Source: Candidatus Saccharimonadota bacterium (GTDB taxonomy: Bacteria; Patescibacteriota; Saccharimonadia; Saccharimonadales; Saccharimonadaceae). Taken from it: 64,000 nucleotides of DNA. Below are positions 5,738 through 63,224 of this stretch, one piece after another (position 1 is the stretch's first letter; each line of letters starts with the position of its first letter). Where the stretch lies: positions 2,236 to 66,235 of the forward strand of contig JAILQE010000007.1 in the NCBI GenBank assembly GCA_024699125.1. The letters run 5' to 3'. The notes under the pieces were generated by a model. That model did not search any database. It had not been told where the DNA came from and was given only the letters and a program-made list of their open reading frames with translations. The position numbers were made by a program, and so were the translations under genes.

Positions 5738-6023
5738 CTCAAAAGATTATCGCGACTTTGTTTCGGAACAATTATCATTGGTGCCAGACATTTCTTGTCG
5801 ACCAATGATGGGTGAGTTTTTGTTGTATGCTGGCGGTGTTTTGTTTGGCGGAATTTATGACGATCGTTTGCTGGTGAAAATTGTGCCAGAAAATTCCGGT
5901 TACAATATGTCGGAAGAAATTCCGTACGACGGCGCGAAGCCGATGTATTTGGTGGAAGATGTAGATAACAAAGAGTTACTAGCCGAGATTGTGAGAGCGA
6001 CGGTTGAGGGGTTGAGTAAATAA
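5730..6023 (+). CDS. TfoX/Sxy N-terminal-domain protein
   Basis: MMGEFLLYAGGVLFGGIYDDRLLVK is typical of the TfoX_N domain. It overlaps the previous gene by 8 nt. Confidence 0.55.
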   Translation: MASSKDYRDFVSEQLSLVPDISCRPMMGEFLLYAGGVLFGGIYDDRLLVKIVPENSGYNMSEEIPYDGAKPMYLVEDVDNKELLAEIVRATVEGLSK

Positions 6024-6151
6024 CGGGAGGGGCGGGGAATCCCGGGAGGGGCAGGGAATCCCGCGCTTTGCGCGGGATGCGAACCCTATAGGCCGAACCC
6101 CATCGTCACGAATAAAAAAACAAACCCCGTTGGGGTTTCTTTTTTTATTCG
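6024..6151 (-). repeat. tRNA-Lys trailer: long hairpin abutting the CCA, plus degenerate copies of the tRNA T-arm/acceptor 3' half
   Basis: CGGGAGGGGC (6024-6033) and CCGGGAGGGGC (6042-6052) copy tRNA positions 6160-6170. CGAACCCT recurs at about 6080. The hairpin ACGAATAAAAAAACAAACCCC-gtt-GGGGTTTCTTTTTTTATTCGT ends at the CCA. Confidence 0.7.
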
Positions 6152-6228
6152 TGGTGATCCGGGAGGGGCTCGAACCCTCGACACCAAGCTTAAGAGGCTC
6201 GTGCTCTAACCAACTGAGCTACCGGACC
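6152..6228 (-). tRNA. tRNA-Lys (anticodon CTT)
   Basis: Manual cloverleaf: GGTCCGG acceptor, D arm GCTC-AGTTGGTTA-GAGC, anticodon loop CTCTTAA, T arm GAGGG-TTCGAGC-CCCTC, encoded ACCA. Confidence 0.9.
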
Positions 6229-6358
6229 GAGTGAGGATAAAAACGAAAACTCGTTTTCGTTTTTGATCCGAACGAGGGACGGCTAGCGCGTAGCGCATCC
6301 CGGACCGGATATAAATCCGAATAGCGGCCGGCTAGCACGAAGTGCATCCCGGACCTGC
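6229..6358 (-). repeat. tRNA-Lys leader with two degenerate copies of the tRNA 5' end and a TGGTATAAT promoter
   Basis: In the sense orientation, GGTCCGGGATGC(A/G)CT(T/A)CG(T/C)GCTAGCCG occurs twice, mimicking the GGTCCGGTAGCTC 5' end. GTGGTATAAT lies at about 6349-6358 on the minus strand. Confidence 0.6.
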
Positions 6359-6420
6359 TAAACTATTATACCACAAAACCGCCAAAAACAAAAGATTTAA
6401 GGGCGTGATATAATTAAGGT

Positions 6421-14689: not shown

Positions 14690-15079
14690 TTAATTACGAT
14701 TTCGTTTGATATAGGCGTCTTCTTTTTCGAGCTCAGCTTTCAAGATATATTCTTTACATTTGCCATCCTCACAGTTGGCGGCTTCGTAAGAATAAGAGCT
14801 GTCTTCGTAGCCGAGATTAACACCGAATGGGTCGGTCCAAAGGGCAGGGTCGATGACAGTAATGTTTTCCTCGGAAATGGTTTCTGGGTAGTAGCCGTGG
14901 GTTTTATAGAAACTTTCTTCGAGCGCATAATACATAGCGTTGATGGCGGTTTTGCGATCGTTATCGCGCTCCATCGCGTCAACGTTAGCCTTCTGGATGA
15001 AGAAAATAATAAAGAGAAGGCTGGCAAAAACTGCCACAATTATAATTTCTAAAACTGTAAAACCATTTTTCTTTTTCAT
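14690..15079 (-). CDS. Prepilin-type N-terminal cleavage/methylation domain protein (type IV pilin-like)
   Basis: MKKKNGFTVLEIIIVAVF (G|FTxxE motif). The start was moved to the ATG at 15079, which lies 6 nt after TGCTATAAT on the minus strand. Confidence 0.7.
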   Translation of the reverse strand: MKKKNGFTVLEIIIVAVFASLLFIIFFIQKANVDAMERDNDRKTAINAMYYALEESFYKTHGYYPETISEENITVIDPALWTDPFGVNLGYEDSSYSYEAANCEDGKCKEYILKAELEKEDAYIKRNRN

Positions 15080-15121
15080 GCCTTTATTATAGCACAAAGA
15101 TGTGGTATAATAAAACAACGT

Positions 15122-15198
15122 GGTACCGTAGCTCAGATGGTTAGAGCGTGGGACTCATAAGCCCAAGGTCACTGGTTCGATCCCAGTCGGTACTACCA
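15122..15198 (+). tRNA. tRNA-Met (anticodon CAT; elongator-like G1:C72)
   Basis: Manual cloverleaf: anticodon loop CTCATAA, T arm CTGG-TTCGATC-CCAG, encoded ACCA. TGGTATAAT lies 10 nt upstream. Confidence 0.85.
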
Positions 15199-15275
15199 CA
15201 AATTCGTAACGACCATAGGTCGTTTTTTTTGTTGCCTCGCAACAAAAAAGAAGCGAAGCTTCTACGAATTTGTGG
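15196..15275 (+). other. Cloverleaf-like four-way junction trailer starting at the tRNA-Met CCA
   Basis: A 13-bp outer stem (15196-15208 / 15263-15275) encloses three abutting triloop hairpins at 15209-15223 (followed by a T-run, so also a terminator), 15225-15249 and 15250-15262. Confidence 0.7.
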
Positions 15276-15373
15276 AAGGACGGCAAGCGATAATGTTTTG
15301 CTTTGCAAAACATTTAGAGCGCCGGCCTACCATGAACAGGAAAAAGGGCGACCCGAAGGCCACCCCAAGATTT

Positions 15374-15745
15374 TTAGGAAGCTGCTTCTCGATAATTTTT
15401 CCCGAGCTTTACTAAGCTTAAAAGATCCCTCAGAAGCTTAGGCTTGTCCATAGGAAGGCCATTCTGGCGCAATTTAGTTTTAAACTTTCTGTTCTCTTTC
15501 GCGTCGTCTCCCTTCATATGGTTCTCGTTTGCCTCGAGGTATTTTTCCACAGACTTCATGTTGTCCGCAACAAAGGCCAACTGCCTCATTCGCTCAATGC
15601 TCGCAGAAAAACATCCATTATCTCTCAGAAGATTTTTGATGCCTCGAAGCTCAGATTTGATTCTTCGTCTTGCTCTGCAGGTTGTTGTGCTGGCAAGATC
15701 CTCCTCCAAGCTCAGCAATTTCTTTACAGCCGTTGTATTCTTCAC
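15374..15745 (-). CDS. Hypothetical protein (no recognisable family)
   Basis: GTG start 8 nt after AAGGAGG. Own TGATATAAT promoter and upstream terminator. Charged, helical sequence. Confidence 0.4.
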   Translation of the reverse strand: MKNTTAVKKLLSLEEDLASTTTCRARRRIKSELRGIKNLLRDNGCFSASIERMRQLAFVADNMKSVEKYLEANENHMKGDDAKENRKFKTKLRQNGLPMDKPKLLRDLLSLVKLGKNYREAAS

Positions 15746-16066: not shown

Positions 16067-16157
16067 ATTGTTACCTCCGTAAAAAAATAATCATCAACTA
16101 CCACGAACTGTAATGTTCGACACGACGTCCATGGTATTATAACACAATTCAAAATAA

Positions 16158-16322
16158 CGGAAGGGACAGGATGGTGATCCAGTCTCCTAAAGCCCCCAAA
16201 TCTAAAGCAGCAGAAACTTCGTTTCTACGCATTCCTCGGGCAACAAAAATAGGAGAGCAAGCTCTCTATTTTTATTGCCTCTCGGCCTGCTGAAAAGCTG
16301 CGCTTTTCTGCTGCTTTAGACT
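16158..16322 (-). repeat. tRNA-Ser trailer: structured ~150-nt insert bounded by a 15-nt direct repeat of the tRNA 3' region
   Basis: CGGAAGGGACAGGAT at 16158-16172 equals 16326-16340. A 12-16 bp outer stem (16201-16216 / 16305-16320) encloses three hairpins. TGGTGATCC at 16172-16180 matches the tRNA-Lys 3' end. Confidence 0.7.
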
Positions 16323-16409
16323 TGGCGGAAGGGACAGGATTCGAACCTGCGAAGCTATTAACTTGCTGGTTTTCAAGACCAGTGCCATCAACCACTCGGC
16401 CACCCTTCC
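16323..16409 (-). tRNA. tRNA-Ser (anticodon TGA)
   Basis: Manual fold: GGAAGGG acceptor, anticodon loop CTTGAAA, long variable arm, T arm CAGG-TTCGAAT-CCTG, GCCA end. TGCTATAAT lies 7 nt upstream. Confidence 0.9.
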
Positions 16410-23456: not shown

Positions 23457-23533
23457 GCCTCCGTAGCTCAGTGGATTAGAGCATCTGTCTTCGGAACAGA
23501 GGGTCGTAGGTTCGAGTCCTATCGGAGGTACCA
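23457..23533 (+). tRNA. tRNA-Arg (anticodon TCG)
   Basis: Manual fold: GCCTCCG acceptor, anticodon stem-loop TCTGT-CTTCGGA-ACAGA, T arm GTAGG-TTCGAGT-CCTAT, ACCA end, followed by T8. Confidence 0.85.
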
Positions 23534-23606
23534 TTTTTTTTGTAGAAGAGCCTTCGGCACGGACTCGAGCAATCGAACAAAAAAATAATCCCTCGCGGGA
23601 TTATTT

Positions 23607-42280: not shown

Positions 42281-42354
42281 GGCACTGTGGCGGAGTGGTT
42301 ACGCAGCGGTCTGCAAAACCGCGTACACCGGTTCAATTCCGGTCGGTGCCTCCA
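42281..42354 (+). tRNA. tRNA-Cys (anticodon GCA)
   Basis: Manual fold: GGCACTG acceptor, anticodon loop CTGCAAA, T arm CCGG-TTCAATT-CCGG, TCCA end. Confidence 0.85.
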
Positions 42355-42381
42355 TTTTTTTATGAAATAAAAAAATGGAGA

Positions 42382-42444
42382 CACCGGGCTTCGCCAACGG
42401 TGCCTCCGTCTCCAAAGAGCACCGGGCTACGCCAACGGGCCTCC
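42382..42444 (+). repeat. Two tandem degenerate copies of the tRNA-Cys T-arm/acceptor 3' half
   Basis: CACCGGGCTTCGCCAACGGTGCCTCC (42382-42407) and CACCGGGCTACGCCAACGGGCCTCC (42420-42444), compared with the tRNA's CACCGGTTCAATTCCGGTCGGTGCCTCC. Confidence 0.7.
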
Positions 42445-42458
42445 AAATTCTTGAAAGT

Positions 42459-42547
42459 GTGCTATAATTAAGTCATAAGAAAAGCGCCTCTAGGAAGCAC
42501 TTTTCTGGTTTGGTATCTAGTTAGTTAAACGACTAACTAGATTTTTT
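42459..42547 (+). ncRNA. Candidate ~73-nt small RNA (promoter + terminator, no ORF)
   Basis: TGCTATAAT (42460-42468). Hairpin TCTAGTTAGT-taaacg-ACTAACTAGA (42516-42541) followed by T6. No start codon in between. Confidence 0.35.
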
Positions 42548-47193: not shown

Positions 47194-47270
47194 GCGAATG
47201 TAGCTCAGTTGTTTAGAGCGCTTCCTTGCCAAGGAAGAGGTCGAGAGTTAGAGTCTCTTCATTCGCACCA
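47194..47270 (+). tRNA. tRNA-Gly (anticodon GCC) with an atypical D loop and T loop
   Basis: Manual fold: GCGAATG acceptor, D loop AGTTGTTTA (no GG), anticodon stem-loop CTTCC-TTGCCAA-GGAAG, T arm GAGAG-TTAGAGT-CTCTT, ACCA end. TGATATAAT lies 10 nt upstream. Confidence 0.75.
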
Positions 47271-47378
47271 TTTTTGTATAGAATCAAGAATGCTCCATCG
47301 GAGCCTTTTTTGTGCCTCACACGTTGAACTTACGCTAAGTCCGGTGTATAATATAACCATAAATAGGAGAATTAAAAA

Positions 47379-53368: not shown

Positions 53369-53608
53369 GGGTGATCGACGGGAGGACGCTCGCTGAAGCT
53401 CGCTATCCGCCTTTGGCGGGCGAACCCTGCGGGAAGGTGATCTCGGCGGTAGTGGCTTCGCCCCTCCCTCCTCGTCACCAAATAAAAAAACAAGCCTTAC
53501 GGCTTCTTTTTTCTTTGGTGATCGACGCGTGCTTCGCACGCTACAGATCACCGGCGTTTCTCAAAAACAAAAATAAGACTTACGGCTTATTTTTGTTTTT
53601 TCTAAACT
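53369..53608 (-). repeat. tRNA-Glu trailer: three same-sense and one inverted copy of the tRNA 3' end, interleaved with long hairpins
   Basis: GGTGATC at 53370, 53437 (GGTGATCTCGGCGG, 14 nt exact) and 53518. The inverted GATCACC lies at 53546. Two hairpins carry a GCCTTACGGC / GACTTACGGC apex. A pseudo T-loop CGAACCC lies at about 53421. Confidence 0.7.
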
Positions 53609-56736: not shown

Positions 56737-58287
56737 ATGAAAAAACCAAAGACCTACCAACAAGTAATTGGTGAAACCATCGAACAAATGCGCCTCGAAA
56801 AAGGCTGGACGCAGGGCGAACTTGCCGCTGCCGTTGGTTCATCACAGTCTGCAATTCACCGCATCGAAAAAGGCGGCCAAAATATTTCGCTTGAAATGAT
56901 CAAGAAGCTTTCCGAAGCTCTTGGTAACCAAATTCTCTCTATTAATGACTCCGTTTCGCAGAGTTTTCGTATTCGCGGTGGCAAAGAGCTTGCTGGCGAG
57001 ATTACCGTTAATACTTCCAAAAACGCAGCCGTTGCTTTGCTTTGTGCGGCACTTTTGAATTCCGGCAAAACTGTTTTGCATCGTGTTGCGCGCATCGAAG
57101 AAGTCTTTCGTATTATTGAAGTTTTGGAATCGATTGGCGTAAAATGCCATTGGCAAAATCGTCATCGTGACCTTGAAATTATATCACCCCGCGAATTGAA
57201 ACTTGATGAAATGAATATTGAGGCCGCGCGCAAAACCCGTTCTATCATTATGTTCCTTGGCCCATTGCTTCATTTTTATAAAAAGTTCGAAATTCCATAT
57301 GCTGGCGGTTGTTCGCTTGGTACTCGCACGGTTGAGCCACACCTCAAAGCTTTGGAAAGCTTTGGCCTTCAGGTTGATGCTACCAAAAATAGTGGTTTTT
57401 ACAGTGTAGAAGTTGATCAAAAAACCTTGAAGAAAACTACCGACCGCCGCATTATTCTTACTGAACGTGGCGACACTGTCACTGAAAACATTTTGATGGC
57501 CGCCGCACTTTGTCCAGGCAAAACCACCATCGTGGGCGCCTCACCAAACTACATGGTGCAAGACGTTTGTTTCTTCCTCGAAAAACTTGGCGTCAAAATC
57601 AGCGGTATTGGCACCACGACTTTGGTTGTGCGTGGCCGCCAAAGATTCAATTCCGACGTTGAATACTACATTTCTGAAGACCCAATCGAAGCCATGTCGT
57701 TTATCGCCGCTGCGTTTGCTACGCATTCCGAAATTACTTTGCTTCGTGCACCAATCGAATTTTTGGAAGTAGAGCTTGAGGTTTTGAAAAACATGAACGC
57801 TAAATTTGAAATTAGCGAAGAGTATCTTTCCAACAATGGTCGTACGCGTCTTGTTGATTTGACTGTTAAAAAATCCGACCTCGTGGCGCCAATCGATAAA
57901 ATTCATCCGATGCCATTCCCGGGTCTCAATATTGACAACTTGCCATTCTTCTCGGTGATTGCCGCCGTGGCCGAAGGCCGCACTTTGATTCACGACTGGG
58001 TATTCGAAAACCGCGCCATTTACACGGCTGAACTTGCGAACTTAAATGCCAAGGTCGAGTTGCTTGACGCTCACCGCATTTACGTAGAAGGTCCAACCAA
58101 CTGGCATGCCGCTGAGCTCGTGGCTCCACAAGCTTTGCGCCCAGCCGTCGTGATTTTGATCGCGATGCTCGCCGCTCCTGGCACTTCGATTCTCCGCAAT
58201 GTTTATCCAATCAACCGCGGCTATCAAGATTTCGCTGCCCGCTTAAGACATTTAGGTGCAGACATTTCACCACTCACTGGTATTTAA
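56737..58287 (+). CDS. murA: UDP-N-acetylglucosamine 1-carboxyvinyltransferase fused to an N-terminal XRE-type HTH domain
   Basis: aa ~8-66 (IEQMRLEKGWTQGELAAAVGSSQSAIHRIEKGGQNISLEMIKKLSEAL) is an XRE HTH. From aa ~77, FRIRGGKELAGEITVNTSKNAAVALL ... YAGGCSLGTRTVEPH carries the catalytic Cys loop. TGGTATAAT lies 7 nt upstream. Confidence 0.85.
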   Translation: MKKPKTYQQVIGETIEQMRLEKGWTQGELAAAVGSSQSAIHRIEKGGQNISLEMIKKLSEALGNQILSINDSVSQSFRIRGGKELAGEITVNTSKNAAVALLCAALLNSGKTVLHRVARIEEVFRIIEVLESIGVKCHWQNRHRDLEIISPRELKLDEMNIEAARKTRSIIMFLGPLLHFYKKFEIPYAGGCSLGTRTVEPHLKALESFGLQVDATKNSGFYSVEVDQKTLKKTTDRRIILTERGDTVTENILMAAALCPGKTTIVGASPNYMVQDVCFFLEKLGVKISGIGTTTLVVRGRQRFNSDVEYYISEDPIEAMSFIAAAFATHSEITLLRAPIEFLEVELEVLKNMNAKFEISEEYLSNNGRTRLVDLTVKKSDLVAPIDKIHPMPFPGLNIDNLPFFSVIAAVAEGRTLIHDWVFENRAIYTAELANLNAKVELLDAHRIYVEGPTNWHAAELVAPQALRPAVVILIAMLAAPGTSILRNVYPINRGYQDFAARLRHLGADISPLTGI

Positions 58288-58288
58288 T

Positions 58289-58370
58289 AAAAGCAATTTA
58301 GCAATTTTTTGGAGAGCGCTCCTGGCCGCTAGGCCAAGTCTTACTCTCCAAAAAATTCTAAATTGCTTTT
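58289..58370 (+). terminator. Very long nested inverted repeat acting as the murA terminator
   Basis: Arms 58289-58316 and 58344-58370 form 14 + 12 bp with a small internal loop. The centre holds the inner hairpin CCTGGCC-gcta-GGCCAAG. A T-run follows. Confidence 0.6.
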
Positions 58371-58420
58371 TAAATACCATGGGGGTTTAAATATCGTGCC
58401 AAATGTTTTAAGATGGTTAG

Positions 58421-62679: not shown

Positions 62680-62743
62680 ATTGAACAGACGTTGGCGAAG
62701 CCCGGCAGTTCCCAACAAAAATAGACTTGCTGAAGCCTATGCA

Positions 62744-62940: not shown

Positions 62941-63148
62941 AGACCAGGTTTAAAAAAACTAACCAAAGTTAGTTTTCTTAAACCTGGTCTGGGTGACAGG
63001 ACTTGCCCGCCGAAGTCGGCCACAGTCCTGCTTTTTTGAAGTTTTTGTGACAACAAAAATGGGGCTTATTTTTGCTGCGCGAAAATAAAAGCCCACTGCG
63101 GATACTCAAAAAAGCCAAAGCAAGCTTTGGTTTTTATCCGTATCCTTG
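62941..63148 (-). repeat. tRNA-Pro(TGG) trailer: ~143-nt hairpin-rich insert bounded by a 21-nt exact copy of the tRNA 3' end, plus a 50-nt hairpin
   Basis: TGGTCTGGGTGACAGGACTTG at 62985-63005 equals 63149-63169. Hairpins lie at 62941-62990, 62997-63030, 63042-63060, 63058-63096 and 63099-63140. Confidence 0.75.
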
Positions 63149-63224
63149 TGGTCTGGGTGACAGGACTTGAACCTGCGACCTCGACTTCCCAAAAGTCGCG
63201 CGCTACCAACTGTGCTACACCCAG
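63149..63224 (-). tRNA. tRNA-Pro (anticodon TGG)
   Basis: Manual fold: CTGGGTG acceptor, anticodon stem-loop CGACT-TTTGGGA-AGTCG, T arm CAGG-TTCAAGT-CCTG, ACCA end. TGATATAAT lies 11 nt upstream. Confidence 0.85.

What the first reader, a model, noticed from the sequence alone, without database searches (positions are those of the whole stretch)
15196..15275. Perfect cloverleaf-shaped four-way junction fused to the CCA end of tRNA-Met
**Structure.** A second cloverleaf-like fold begins directly at the encoded CCA.
- The outer stem is 13 bp: CCACAAATTCGTA (15196-15208) pairs with TACGAATTTGTGG (15263-15275).
- It encloses three hairpins that abut with at most one unpaired nucleotide between them.
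  - ACGACC-ata-GGTCGT
  - T6GTTGC-ctc-GCAACA6
  - GAAGC-gaa-GCTTC
- All three have 3-nt loops.

**Why it stands out.** Only the first hairpin plus its T-run is needed for termination. The remaining symmetry has no obvious explanation.

A trailer with the same architecture but unrelated sequence follows tRNA-Ile (32323-32408). Conserved shape without conserved sequence suggests a selected RNA or DNA structure, or a common generating mechanism.
Basis: seen in the sequence. Interest (0 to 1): 0.65.

Follow-up and report, generated by a model that had tools for sequence, protein, structure and literature searches.

The report
Palindromic two-way terminator cassette after tRNA-Met
The "second cloverleaf" fused to the CCA end of tRNA-Met is real; it is best read as a DNA-level nested palindrome that stops transcription from both sides, and it always comes with a conserved hairpin that mimics the tRNA's acceptor end, in one narrow group of Saccharibacteria.

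Summary
The fold is real. Window 15196-15275 forms a 13-bp stem enclosing three abutting hairpins with 3-nt loops (RNA -38.6, DNA -29.5 kcal/mol, z about -9 to -10). It starts at the CCA of tRNA-Met.

It belongs to a family. The same architecture follows tRNA-Ile(UAU) (32323-32408), tRNA-Ser in a larger form (16195-16325), and tRNA-Met or tRNA-Ile in eight related Saccharibacteria loci. It occurs nowhere else in 315 kb and in no shuffle.

The Met and Ile copies are homologous, not unrelated. Each is followed by a conserved, covarying ~60-nt hairpin ending in YTACCA that mimics the tRNA acceptor end. Many relatives have an empty site, so the unit is an insertion that the tRNA can do without.

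Hairpin 1 plus T8 looks like the tRNA terminator. Hairpin 3 plus T6 on the minus strand looks like the terminator for the convergent gene. Hairpin 2 is their paired T/A tracts.

The stems are almost purely Watson-Crick, the loops are mostly GNA-type, and the inner segment is inverted between strains. A similar extended palindrome also lies at a non-tRNA site.

Best reading: a two-way terminator cassette shaped at the DNA level by template switching and inversion. Mobile-element and RNA-processing readings remain open.

The parts
15101..15111 (+). Extended -10 promoter element TGTGGTATAAT of tRNA-Met
   Evidence: Read from the sequence. The same motif is the most over-represented 10-12-mer of the window. 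It is conserved upstream of tRNA-Met in the loci where tRNA-Met is divergent from the pilin gene.
15122..15198 (+). tRNA-Met(CAT) with encoded CCA (15196-15198); 3' end ...CGGTACTACCA
   Evidence: ARAGORN; Rfam RF00005, 65 bits.
15196..15208 (+). 5' arm of the 13-bp outer stem (CCACAAATTCGTA); its first three bases are the tRNA's CCA
   Evidence: Perfect inverted repeat 15196/15275 with 13-nt arms. Covariation across 11 trailers.
15209..15230 (+). Hairpin 1 (ACGACC-ata-GGTCGT, 15209-15223) plus the T-run to 15230: predicted intrinsic terminator of tRNA-Met
   Evidence: Terminator-consensus hit on the + strand, 15208-15224 followed by TTTTTTGTTG. The ACAGCC/GGCTGT hairpin at this position in relatives resembles the simple terminator hairpins after tRNA-Met in L026, L035 and L040.
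15225..15249 (.). Hairpin 2: T6GTTGC-ctc-GCAACA6, the two opposed T/A tracts paired around a short GTTGC core
   Evidence: Perfect inverted repeat with 11-nt arms; folds.
15244..15263 (-). Hairpin 3 (GAAGC-gaa-GCTTC, 15250-15262) plus the A6 tract, which is T6 on the minus strand: predicted intrinsic terminator for transcription coming from the convergent gene
   Evidence: Terminator-consensus hit on the - strand, 15263-15249 followed by TTTTTGTTGC.
15263..15275 (+). 3' arm of the outer stem (TACGAATTTGTGG); its TGG is shared with the base of the next hairpin
15273..15332 (+). Conserved hairpin 'module': TGG-A-AGG-A-CGGC / AA GC GA-TA / apical hairpin / T-TA-GA GC / GCCG-G-CCT-A-CCA. Its 3' strand resembles the tRNA-Met 3' end and its TTAGAGCG resembles the tRNA D-arm.
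   Evidence: Fold -25.7 kcal/mol, z -5.6. Alignment A2: 91.8% of cells paired, 11 of 19 pairs changed on both sides, 0/500 shuffles as good. Covariance model R1 scores it 81.5 bits and finds it only after cloverleafs. It is 100% identical to the L019 copy although the flanks are 88.6% identical.
15345..15366 (-). Own terminator of the convergent 123-aa ORF (15374-15745, minus strand)
   Evidence: Terminator-consensus hit; ORF list.
32323..32408 (-). Homologous four-way-junction trailer of tRNA-Ile(TAT) (tRNA at 32406-32482, minus strand)
32266..32325 (-). Second copy of the module, directly 3' of the Ile cloverleaf
   Evidence: R1 hit, 63.2 bits; fold -31.4 kcal/mol, z -6.2; 98% identical to L003:189-248 although the flanks are 86% identical.
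16195..16325 (-). Larger four-way-junction trailer of tRNA-Ser(TGA). An 18-bp outer stem starts at CCA (one mismatch) and encloses two small hairpins and a long central bidirectional terminator. A partial copy of the tRNA-Ser 3' end follows.
   Evidence: Fold -68 kcal/mol, z -9.2; sequence; same structure in L022.

Best explanation
The 80-nt 'cloverleaf' is a nested DNA palindrome that works as a two-way transcription stop.

How the parts are read:
- Hairpin 1 plus its T8 run ends tRNA-Met transcripts.
- Hairpin 3 plus its T6 run on the other strand ends transcripts arriving from the convergent gene before they run antisense into the tRNA.
- Hairpin 2 exists because the two opposed T/A tracts, with a short palindromic core, are complementary.
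- The 13-bp outer stem lies beyond both predicted termination points. It is therefore read as an inverted repeat of the DNA, not as part of the normal transcripts.

How it probably arose and persists (inferred): replication template switching copies one arm onto the other. This keeps arms perfect, changes several bases at once and can grow an arm into the tRNA's CCA. Inversion of the segment between the arms also occurs.

The cassette is one half of a lineage-specific insertion of about 135 nt at the CCA end of tRNAs ending in CTACCA (elongator tRNA-Met and tRNA-Ile(UAU)). The other half is a conserved hairpin whose 3' strand copies the tRNA's 3' end.

Status of each step:
- Shown: the structure, the family, the empty and filled sites, the covariation, the inversion and the terminator-consensus matches.
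- Inferred: actual termination, and template switching as the generating process.
For: 1. Both side hairpins match the intrinsic-terminator consensus, H1 on the + strand and H3 on the - strand. In all nine cloverleafs H1 is followed by a T-run and H3 is preceded by an A-run.

2. The unit is dispensable. Many syntenic relatives have tRNA-Met CCA followed directly by a T-run, promoter or the pilin-like gene (L007, L012, L014, L015, L020, L023, L028, L036, L038). L049 has tRNA-Ile(TAT) with the same ...CGCCCCTACCA end and only a simple shared terminator.

3. The signature is DNA-like.
   - In the outer stem 97.2% of cells pair, and only 4 of 143 cells are G:U.
   - Both strands of the window copy fold equally well, -38.6 kcal/mol each.
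   - Of the 24 three-nucleotide loops, 15 are GNA on one strand or the other (counted by hand). GNA triloops such as d(GCGAAGC) are exceptionally stable in DNA (my own knowledge).

4. The inner three-hairpin segment is inverted between strains. L011 against L016 scores 10 forward and 37 as reverse complement, and the loop TAC becomes GTA.

5. The inverted repeat takes in a variable amount of the tRNA end in different loci: offsets -6, -3, -2, 0 and +1 relative to C74. This is what arm-copying would give and not what a fixed-end element would give.

6. Of the 15 perfect inverted repeats with arms of at least 11 nt in the window, 10 lie within 160 nt 3' of a tRNA. A similar extended palindrome also lies between two protein genes at 58280-58380. 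Extended palindromes around terminators are therefore not confined to tRNA flanks.

7. Published work shows that template switching creates and maintains perfect stems, makes multi-base compensatory changes and inverts spacers (PMC8794818, PMC8604942, PMC5941160).

8. No Rfam family matches. No transposase, integrase or reverse transcriptase was found among the 50 window ORFs scanned.
Against: - The architecture is kept over deep divergence: flanks are only 70-75% identical in L009, L011 and L016. It is also kept in L030, where the downstream gene is co-directional and an antisense terminator has no obvious use. That looks like more than a by-product.
- H1 and H3 are never reverse complements of each other. 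A single fold-back event would make them so.
- The attached module is much better conserved than the flanks (98-100% against 86-88%). It has covarying stems and a conserved internal loop. It sits at both Met and Ile loci in type combinations that do not follow the locus. This suggests sequence-specific function or mobility that a terminator reading does not explain.
- In L011 a hairpin anchored at the CCA of tRNA-fMet lies upstream of the real terminator, so it would be transcribed.
- No transcript data were available, so termination at H1 and H3 is only a consensus prediction.
Confidence: 0.45

Rival explanations
1. The cloverleaf plus module is a small non-autonomous mobile or recombining element, or the recombination site of one. 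It homes to the 3' end of tRNAs ending in CTACCA. An enzyme encoded elsewhere in the genome would act on its hairpins as single-stranded DNA, for example a Y1/HUH-type transposase or a tRNA-end-specific integrase. Each inserted unit ends in TACCA and so re-creates the target, which would allow tandem accretion.
For: - Sites are filled or empty at two different tRNA loci.
- Every unit ends in YTACCA and sits directly after ...CTACCA. Tandem units occur in L003, L016, L019 and L030.
- Module types are shared between the Met and Ile loci and between genomes at 98-100% identity, although the flanks are 86-88% identical.
- The stems are nearly all Watson-Crick, with conserved mismatches and bulges, and the orientation relative to the tRNA is fixed. 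This resembles ssDNA recombination sites such as REP, attC or IS200/IS605 ends.
- Partial copies of tRNA 3' ends near many tRNAs resemble displaced att fragments (Islander paper PMC4383910).
Against: - There are only two copies in the 64-kb window and none away from tRNA-Met or tRNA-Ile in 315 kb, although CTACCA occurs 41 times in the window counting both strands.
- No transposase, integrase or reverse transcriptase was found among the 50 window ORFs scanned.
- There is no match in phage or plasmid collections or in viral contigs.
- The flanking CCA/TGG is an inverted repeat, not a direct one.
- The left boundary of CCA-anchored repeats varies from -6 to +1.
- Other tRNAs carry copies of their own ends rather than a common element.
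Confidence: 0.25
2. The junction and the module are functional parts of the tRNA precursor RNA. Transcription reads through H1. The outer helix, which sequesters CCA and stacks on the acceptor stem, and the acceptor-mimicking hairpin ending in ACCA then serve as entry sites for RNase III, RNase P or another nuclease. These would define the tRNA 3' end, or release a small tRNA-end-like RNA with its own function.
For: - The shape is kept with compensatory changes over deep divergence.
- The tRNA, the junction and the module fold as three independent domains in one 215-nt RNA: -85.8 kcal/mol, z -6.4.
- All 11 modules fold 0.2-5.2 kcal/mol better on the tRNA-sense strand than on the antisense strand.
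- The module is conserved in sequence and always lies on the tRNA strand.
- The CCA-anchored hairpin of L011 tRNA-fMet lies before its terminator, so it must be transcribed.
- In L019 and L022 the module's ACCA is followed by a T-run, exactly as the tRNA's CCA is in empty sites.
Against: - H1 plus T8 is a canonical terminator upstream of the outer 3' arm and the module, and no + strand promoter-like site was found between 15199 and 15275.
- G:U pairs are almost absent, 4 of 143 outer-stem cells and at most one per module fold, unlike typical functional RNAs.
- Three-nucleotide loops are poor RNA loops.
- The inner segment works in either orientation.
- Most relatives process the same tRNA without it.
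- No Rfam family matches.
Confidence: 0.2
3. It is a coincidental juxtaposition of two ordinary convergent terminators with no family, history or constraint.
For: H1 and H3 are each ordinary-looking terminators.
Against: - The 13-bp outer stem and the palindromic core of H2 are not needed for termination.
- There are 11 instances, all at tRNA-Met or tRNA-Ile ends, and none in shuffles.
- The outer stem covaries.
- The structure is present in L030, where there is no convergent gene.
Confidence: 0.03

Closest known systems
Intrinsic (Rho-independent) terminators, including bidirectional terminators between convergent genes
   Same: H1 (+ strand) and H3 (- strand) are short G+C-containing hairpins followed by T-runs, placed between a tRNA gene and a convergent ORF.
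   Different: - A classical bidirectional terminator is one hairpin flanked by an A-tract upstream and a T-tract downstream.
- Here there are two separate hairpins facing each other, and their T/A tracts pair into a third hairpin.
- The whole is wrapped in a 13-bp inverted repeat that starts in the tRNA's CCA and lies outside both predicted transcripts.
Inverted repeats kept perfect by replication template switching (quasipalindrome correction, spacer inversion)
   Same: The arms stay perfect despite multi-base differences between lineages. The spacer is inverted between strains. The arms extend into neighbouring sequence. This matches the behaviour described in PMC8794818, PMC8604942 and PMC5941160.
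   Different: Those studies describe single hairpins. Here three hairpins are nested in a fourth stem. H1 and H3 are never mirror copies of each other.
Displaced tRNA-gene fragments left by tyrosine-integrase elements (genomic islands at tRNA genes; Islander, PMC4383910)
   Same: A second copy of the tRNA's 3' end lies downstream of the intact gene. For tRNA-Met it is ...CCGGCCTACCA or ...CCGGACTACCA against the tRNA's ...CGGTACTACCA. Longer copies occur in L025, L026, L032 and L035, and after the window's Ser, Pro, Glu, Cys and Lys tRNAs.
   Different: - The 'island' between the tRNA and the fragment is only 60-150 nt and carries no integrase or cargo.
- The fragment is paired with a complementary strand into a covarying hairpin.
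- Units are stacked in tandem.
REP / REPIN elements and IS200/IS605-derived palindromic elements
   Same: The module is an imperfect hairpin with conserved mismatches next to a conserved short motif (CTAC on this strand, GTAG on the other). It is intergenic, lies near gene 3' ends and occurs in tandem.
   Different: Copy number is very low and strictly tied to two tRNA genes. No Y1 transposase (RAYT or TnpA) was seen in the window. The resemblance to REP is recalled from memory and was not tested against a model.
tRNA-like processing signals downstream of another RNA (tandem bacterial tRNAs separated by RNase P; MALAT1-mascRNA)
   Same: A four-way junction and an acceptor-like helix ending in ACCA sit directly 3' of a mature RNA end.
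   Different: ARAGORN and Rfam do not call the junction a tRNA. It has a 13-bp 'acceptor', three-nucleotide loops and no T- or D-loop motifs. Processing was not tested.

Membership tests
Intrinsic terminator | Stable G+C-containing hairpin immediately followed by a U-tract on the transcribed strand | tested here: met
   Consensus scan: + strand 15208-15224 followed by TTTTTTGTTG; - strand 15263-15249 followed by TTTTTGTTGC. The same arrangement holds in all nine cloverleafs.
Intrinsic terminator | Transcripts actually end at the U-tract | not testable with these tools
   No transcript or 3'-end data were available.
Classical bidirectional terminator | One hairpin with an A-tract 5' and a T-tract 3', so that it terminates in both directions | tested here: not met
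   H2 has the tracts the wrong way round (T6 on the 5' side, A6 on the 3' side). Two-way function would come from two separate hairpins. The tRNA-Ser, tRNA-Lys and tRNA-Pro(TGG) trailers do contain the classical form.
tRNA or tRNA-like gene | Recognised by tRNA models; 7-bp acceptor stem; D and T loops with conserved bases | tested here: not met
   ARAGORN and Rfam RF00005 call only 15122-15198. Nothing relevant matches 15196-15332 at E up to 10. The outer stem is 13 bp and all loops are 3 nt.
MITE | Terminal inverted repeats | tested here: inconclusive
   The outer arms look like terminal inverted repeats, but the left arm includes the tRNA's own CCA, and the boundary varies from -6 to +1 in other trailers.
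MITE | Direct target-site duplication flanking the element | tested here: inconclusive
   The cloverleaf alone is flanked by an inverted CCA...TGG. The cloverleaf plus module is flanked by a direct TACCA...TACCA, but the second TACCA is a paired, covarying part of the module.
MITE | Many dispersed copies in the genome | tested here: not met
   Two copies in 64 kb, both at tRNA ends. There are none elsewhere in 315 kb by covariance model or by descriptor scan.
REP/RAYT or IS200/IS605-derived element | Associated Y1 (HUH) transposase gene and high copy number | tested here: inconclusive
   No such domain was found among the 50 window ORFs scanned. The rest of the genome could not be searched. 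Copy number in the window is low.
Integrase att remnant (genomic island at a tRNA gene) | Direct repeat of the tRNA 3' segment marking the far end of an integrated element | tested here: met
   The module's 3' strand...CCGG(C/A)CTACCA, matches the tRNA's ...CGGTACTACCA. In L019 the match is 10 of 11.
Integrase att remnant (genomic island at a tRNA gene) | Integrase and cargo between the repeats | tested here: not met
   Only about 130 nt of hairpins lie between the repeats. No plausible protein gene lies there: the list gives only short ORFs running through the tRNA and the hairpins, and two of them share the interval with the tRNA on opposite strands.
Invertible DNA segment (inverton) | Segment bounded by inverted repeats and found in both orientations | tested here: met
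   L011 and L019 carry the inner segment as the reverse complement of L016 and the window. Scores are 10 forward against 37 reverse complement, with the loop flipped. This is seen between genomes, not within one population.
Invertible DNA segment (inverton) | Dedicated invertase and a functional difference between the two orientations | tested here: not met
   No recombinase was found in the window. The segment is functionally symmetric, with a terminator facing outward on each side in either orientation.
Any described RNA family (Rfam 15) | Score at or above the family's gathering threshold | tested here: not met
   Only 13 tRNAs in the window reach their thresholds. A permissive scan of 15100-15400 gives only far-below-threshold matches to unrelated families.

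The most novel reading that the evidence does not exclude
The four-way junction and the acceptor-end-mimicking hairpin together could be an undescribed kind of tRNA-end-anchored element in Saccharibacteria. There are two versions of this reading:
- A miniature element that homes to ...CTACCA tRNA ends through an unknown enzyme that recognises hairpin plus TACCA and acts on single-stranded DNA.
- A processed 3'-trailer RNA, a 'mini-tRNA' made of an acceptor stem, a D-arm-like loop and ACCA, whose release depends on the junction.

The wider pattern seen here would then be the footprint of one tRNA-end-specific system. That pattern is constant cores flanked by arms copied from whichever tRNA they follow, at the 3' ends and perhaps also the 5' ends of many tRNA genes.
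Probability: 0.25. Interest if true: 0.75.

Novelty: new variant of a known kind. Interest (0 to 1): 0.55.

Why it matters
If the ordinary reading holds, this is a clear natural example of how replication template switching and inversion can build and maintain an elaborate multi-branch palindrome around terminators. It is also a caution: perfect covariation does not by itself prove a functional RNA.

If either novel reading holds, it would point to one of two things:
- a tRNA-end-specific recombination or homing activity in the reduced genomes of Saccharibacteria;
- a new tRNA-trailer-derived small RNA.

Either way, the conserved 60-nt hairpin has covarying stems, an invariant internal loop and a YTACCA end. 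It matches no described family and is a concrete, testable candidate.

The finding also shows that tRNA flanks in this clade are hot spots of structured insertions and partial tRNA copies. This matters for annotating tRNA genes, terminators and integration sites in metagenome-assembled genomes.

Tried and rejected
- Rfam, at gathering thresholds on the whole window and permissively on 15100-15400: only tRNAs and spurious sub-threshold hits.
- Genome-collection scan with the module pattern GACGNCAAGCGATA...TTAGAGC: one true relative (L003, a Saccharibacteria MAG). The other five hits (Dehalococcoidia, Novipirellula, Arthrobacter) were set aside as probable chance matches: none has a tRNA next to the match, and their sequences were not examined further.
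- Phage and plasmid blastn of 15199-15340: no match.
- Viral-contig scans with the tRNA-Met 3' end (no hits) and with the module core (11 hits, all at most 16 bits with model R1 against 60-80 bits for real copies): no phage link.
- Pfam scan of 50 window ORFs looking for a transposase, integrase or reverse transcriptase: all hits were to ordinary cellular families, such as NusA, DnaK, ComEC, a PilB-like ATPase, RNase J, LigA, UvrD and a Y-family polymerase; 13 ORFs had no hit.
- DNA-uptake-sequence idea: k-mer counts show only promoter motifs over-represented, and the hairpin cores are not repeated genome-wide.
- MAFFT alignment of whole cloverleafs (A3) was not structurally consistent, so no covariance model of the junction was built. 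A descriptor scan and an arms-only alignment (A4) were used instead.
- Reading the module as a K-turn, a loop E motif or a T-box UGGN element: considered from memory. The geometry or the discriminator pairing does not fit, so it was not pursued.
- A single fold-back duplication as the origin of the junction: rejected as sufficient, because H1 is never the reverse complement of H3.
- Literature searches for a description of such trailers in Saccharibacteria or of terminators at tRNA genes: nothing specific found.
Full report
**1. The observation**

ARAGORN places tRNA-Met(CAT) at 15122-15198 on the + strand, with an encoded CCA at 15196-15198.

Read directly from the sequence:
- CCACAAATTCGTA (15196-15208) is the exact complement of TACGAATTTGTGG (15263-15275).
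- Between them lie H1 ACGACC-ata-GGTCGT (15209-15223), H2 T6GTTGC-ctc-GCAACA6 (15225-15249) and H3 GAAGC-gaa-GCTTC (15250-15262).
- Only T15224 is unpaired at the junction.

The four-way junction is the minimum-free-energy fold in every test:
- RNA, + strand: -38.6 kcal/mol, z -9.1.
- DNA, + strand: -29.5 kcal/mol, z -9.9.
- RNA, opposite strand: -38.6 kcal/mol, z -10.0.

The trailer of tRNA-Ile(TAT) at 32323-32408 (minus strand) has the same layout.

**2. It is a family, tied to tRNA 3' ends**

I wrote a descriptor scan that asks for a perfect outer stem of at least 7 bp around three perfect abutting hairpins. It found 11 instances in about 315 kb (the window plus 35 related loci). All start at or within 3-5 nt of the CCA of tRNA-Met or tRNA-Ile. 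None appeared in 10 shuffles of the window.

The relatives came from two scans:
- A metagenome scan with the tRNA-Met 3' end gave 34 loci.
- A genome scan with a downstream motif gave one true relative, L003, an uncultured Candidatus Saccharibacteria MAG.

All nine distinct cloverleafs have fold energies of -34 to -45 kcal/mol, and eight of them give the four-way junction as the minimum-free-energy structure; the exception is the window's Ile copy.

A third, larger four-way junction follows tRNA-Ser (16195-16325, minus strand). Its 18-bp outer stem again starts at CCA, and it folds at -68 kcal/mol with z -9.2. L022 has the same structure.

Across the 11 outer stems:
- 97.2% of cells are paired.
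- 10 of 13 pairs show changes on both sides (47 cells).
- No shuffle reaches the observed covariation score.

**3.

The 3' arm of every Met or Ile cloverleaf runs into a hairpin of about 55-60 nt. In the window these are 15273-15332 on the + strand and 32266-32325 on the minus strand. The layout is:

TGG-A-ARG-N-stem / AA GC GA-TA / apical hairpin / T-TA-GA GC / stem-N-CYT-A-CCA

The evidence for this structure:
- 91.8% of cells are paired.
- 11 of 19 pairs changed on both sides.
- 0/500 shuffles are as good.

A covariance model built from 11 copies (R1) finds the hairpin only directly after cloverleafs. It is always on the tRNA strand, scores 63-82 bits, and occurs nowhere else in 315 kb. None of the other loci searched later, including the viral contigs, scored above 16 bits.

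Its 3' strand (...GCCGGCCTACCA; in L019 ...CCGGACTACCA) resembles the tRNA-Met 3' end ...GTCGGTACTACCA. Its TTAGAGCG is identical to the 3' half of the tRNA's D-arm. It therefore looks like a tRNA reduced to an acceptor stem and a D-arm-like loop. This last point is my inference from the sequence.

So the Met and Ile trailers are homologous, not 'unrelated'.

**4. It is an insertion, and it is dispensable**

Synteny is conserved: YebC ... tRNA-Ser ... tRNA-Met ... pilin-like gene, bPH-domain gene, RuvB.

At the Met locus the relatives fall into four groups:
- In many relatives the tRNA-Met CCA is followed at once by TTTTTTGTGCTATAAT, which is a T-run plus the pilin promoter, or by the pilin-like gene itself. 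These are empty sites: L007, L012, L014, L015, L020, L023, L028, L036 and L038.
- Others have a simple hairpin terminator: L031 and L040.
- Others have a hairpin plus a short copy of the tRNA end: L008, L018, L025, L026, L033 and L035.
- The window, L009, L011, L016/L027, L019, L022/L037 and L030 carry cloverleaf plus module. L016, L019 and L030 have two tandem modules.

The Ile locus was reached through homologues of the neighbouring 67-aa protein:
- L049 has tRNA-Ile(TAT) with the same ...CGCCCCTACCA end and only a plain shared terminator.
- L048 has a single long hairpin.
- More distant relatives carry tRNA(CAT) at this place.

Every inserted unit follows ...CTACCA and itself ends in YTACCA.

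**5. What the three hairpins do**

The consensus scan calls H1 with its T-run as a + strand terminator. It calls H3 with its T-run as a - strand terminator. The convergent 123-aa ORF (15374-15745, minus strand) also has its own terminator at 15345-15366.

In all nine cloverleafs H1 is followed by T4-8 and H3 is preceded by A4-7. H2 is the pairing of these two tracts around a core of 2-5 bp.

The ACAGCC/GGCTGT hairpin seen at H1 or H3 in several copies resembles the plain terminator hairpins after tRNA-Met in L026, L035 and L040.

The cassette therefore reads as two opposed terminators. This is inferred from consensus matches; no transcript data exist.

The outer 3' arm lies beyond the H1 termination point, and the outer 5' arm lies beyond the H3 termination point. 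In normally terminated transcripts the outer stem cannot form.

**6. DNA level or RNA level**

Points that favour DNA:
- Both strands of the window copy fold equally well.
- G:U pairs are almost absent: 4 of 143 outer-stem cells, and at most one per module fold.
- 24 of 27 loops are 3 nt, and 15 of those are GNA on one strand or the other (counted by hand). GNA triloops such as d(GCGAAGC) are exceptionally stable in DNA (my own knowledge).
- The inner three-hairpin segment exists in both orientations. L011 and L019 are the reverse complement of L016 and the window. L011 against L016 scores 10 forward and 37 as reverse complement, and the loop TAC becomes GTA.
- The left end of CCA-anchored inverted repeats varies between loci. 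Offsets relative to C74 are 0 (most common), +1, -2, -3 and -6, where the right arm copies GTACTACCA.
- 10 of the 15 long perfect inverted repeats in the window lie just 3' of tRNAs, against 0-2 long repeats per shuffle.
- A comparable nested palindrome sits between two co-directional protein genes at 58280-58380.

These are the behaviours described for replication template switching: perfect arms, multi-base compensatory change and spacer inversion (PMC8794818, PMC8604942, PMC5941160).

Points that keep an RNA role alive:
- The architecture persists where flanks are only 70-75% identical.
- It persists in L030, which has no convergent gene.
- All 11 modules fold slightly better on the sense strand.
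- The 15+5-bp hairpin anchored at the CCA of L011 tRNA-fMet lies upstream of that gene's terminator, so it would be transcribed.

**7. Signs of mobility or selection in the module**

Module 'types' do not follow the locus:
- The type with apical stem AATGTTTTGC is at the Met locus in the window and L019, and at the Ile locus in L003.
- The type with apical stem ACAGCTCGC is at the Ile locus in the window and L003, and at the Met locus in L011.

Within a type, identity is 98-100%, although the flanking DNA is 86-88% identical. This means either strong purifying selection or recent copying between loci and genomes.

By contrast, the cloverleaf next to it is more diverged than the flanks while keeping its shape. 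For example, the outer arm is CAAATTCGTA in the window and CAAAACCACG in L019.

No transposase, integrase or reverse transcriptase was found among the 50 window ORFs scanned. No phage, plasmid or viral-contig relative exists. CTACCA occurs 41 times in the window, counting both strands, but only the two tRNA ends are occupied.

**8. Verdict**

The feature is real, non-random and part of a lineage-specific family.

| Reading | Confidence |
|---|---|
| Two-way terminator cassette: a nested DNA palindrome built and kept perfect by arm-copying and inversion, inserted with a tRNA-end-mimicking hairpin at the CCA of tRNAs ending in CTACCA | about 0.45 |
| Miniature tRNA-end-homing or recombining element | about 0.25 |
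| Functional precursor or trailer RNA | about 0.2 |
| Coincidental juxtaposition of two ordinary terminators | about 0.03 |

The second and third readings are not excluded, mainly because of the module's conservation. Neither the cloverleaf nor the module matches a described RNA family.

I rate the finding as a new variant of known kinds (terminators, template-switch palindromes, displaced tRNA fragments), with interest 0.55.

Noticed in passing
window 14690-15340, compared with L007-L040: The whole tRNA-Met unit (promoter, gene, cloverleaf and module) is inverted relative to the conserved neighbours. In most relatives tRNA-Met lies upstream of the pilin-like gene on the same strand. In the window, L009, L011, L016/L027, L019 and L022/L037 it is divergent from that gene (L033 also has this orientation, but carries only a hairpin plus a short tRNA-end copy). 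Apart from L030, every locus with the cloverleaf has the inverted arrangement. The junctions coincide with TGGTA (in the -10 box TGGTATAAT) and TACCA (the module's end).
   Followed up: partly
window 16195-16325 (-) and 16150-16195 (-): The tRNA-Ser(TGA) trailer is a third, larger four-way junction whose outer stem starts at CCA. It is followed by a partial copy of the tRNA-Ser T-arm and acceptor 3' strand (..ATCCTGTCCCTTCCG). L019 has a version of this copy that ends in GCCA and is again followed by a CCA-anchored hairpin.
   Followed up: partly
window 6016-6153 (-), 53380-53608 (-), 62941-63150 (-), 42350-42460 (+): The trailers of tRNA-Lys, tRNA-Glu, tRNA-Pro(TGG) and tRNA-Cys also carry long palindromes that start in or next to the CCA. 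They also carry partial copies of that tRNA's own 3' end. After tRNA-Pro(TGG) the copy ends exactly at ...CCCAGACCA and is itself followed by an inverted repeat anchored on AGACCA (62941-62990).
   Followed up: partly
window 42386-42398, 42424-42436 (+) and 62691-62703 (-): A constant 13-mer, GGGCTWCGCCAAC, occurs three times. After tRNA-Cys both copies form the loop of hairpins whose stems copy that tRNA's 3' end. After tRNA-Pro(CGG) the arms did not clearly match the tRNA end. It is absent from all fetched loci. It may be a second family with a constant core.
   Followed up: partly
window 6229-6375 (-); L018 and L038 upstream of tRNA-Met: The tRNA-Lys promoter (TGTGGTATAAT) lies about 135 nt upstream of the gene. 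The leader holds two tandem copies of the tRNA's own 5' end (GGTCCGG plus a hairpin) and an A/T-rich hairpin with a T-run just before the gene. A homologous leader element, with a duplicated GGTACCGTAG, precedes tRNA-Met in L018, and a similar duplication occurs in L038. tRNA 5' ends are therefore duplicated too.
   Followed up: no
window 32406-32482 (-); L041-L046: At this syntenic position the window, L003, L048 and L049 carry tRNA-Ile(TAT). More distant relatives carry a tRNA with anticodon CAT, which ARAGORN calls Met. From its position and from its GGGGGCG acceptor stem in L042, I read it as tRNA-Ile2. If so, this points to a switch in how the AUA codon is decoded within the clade.
   Followed up: no
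window 58280-58380: A long nested palindrome of about 35 bp, with A/T tracts around a G+C hairpin and further perfect arms (DNA fold -32.3 kcal/mol, z -10.3). It lies between two co-directional protein genes (EPSP-synthase-like and UvrD-like), away from any tRNA.
   Followed up: partly
L035 about 2105-2180; L026, trailer of tRNA-Ser: Partial tRNA copies (Met in L035, Ser in L026) carry a homologous ~30-nt insert in the T-loop, ATGGAG(Y)GA(R)CGA...CGACATCCC.
   Followed up: no
window 23533-23545, 42354-42362, 47270-47276: Several tRNAs (Arg-TCG, Cys, Gly), and tRNA-Met in the empty-site relatives, are followed directly by a T-run with no separate hairpin, as if the tRNA's own acceptor/T-arm helix served as the terminator hairpin.
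   Followed up: no
L041 about 2700-2913: Tandem duplication of the 3' half of a tRNA(CAT) together with 11 nt of its flank (TTTTTCGCACA), next to the orthologue of the window's 67-aa ORF.
   Followed up: no
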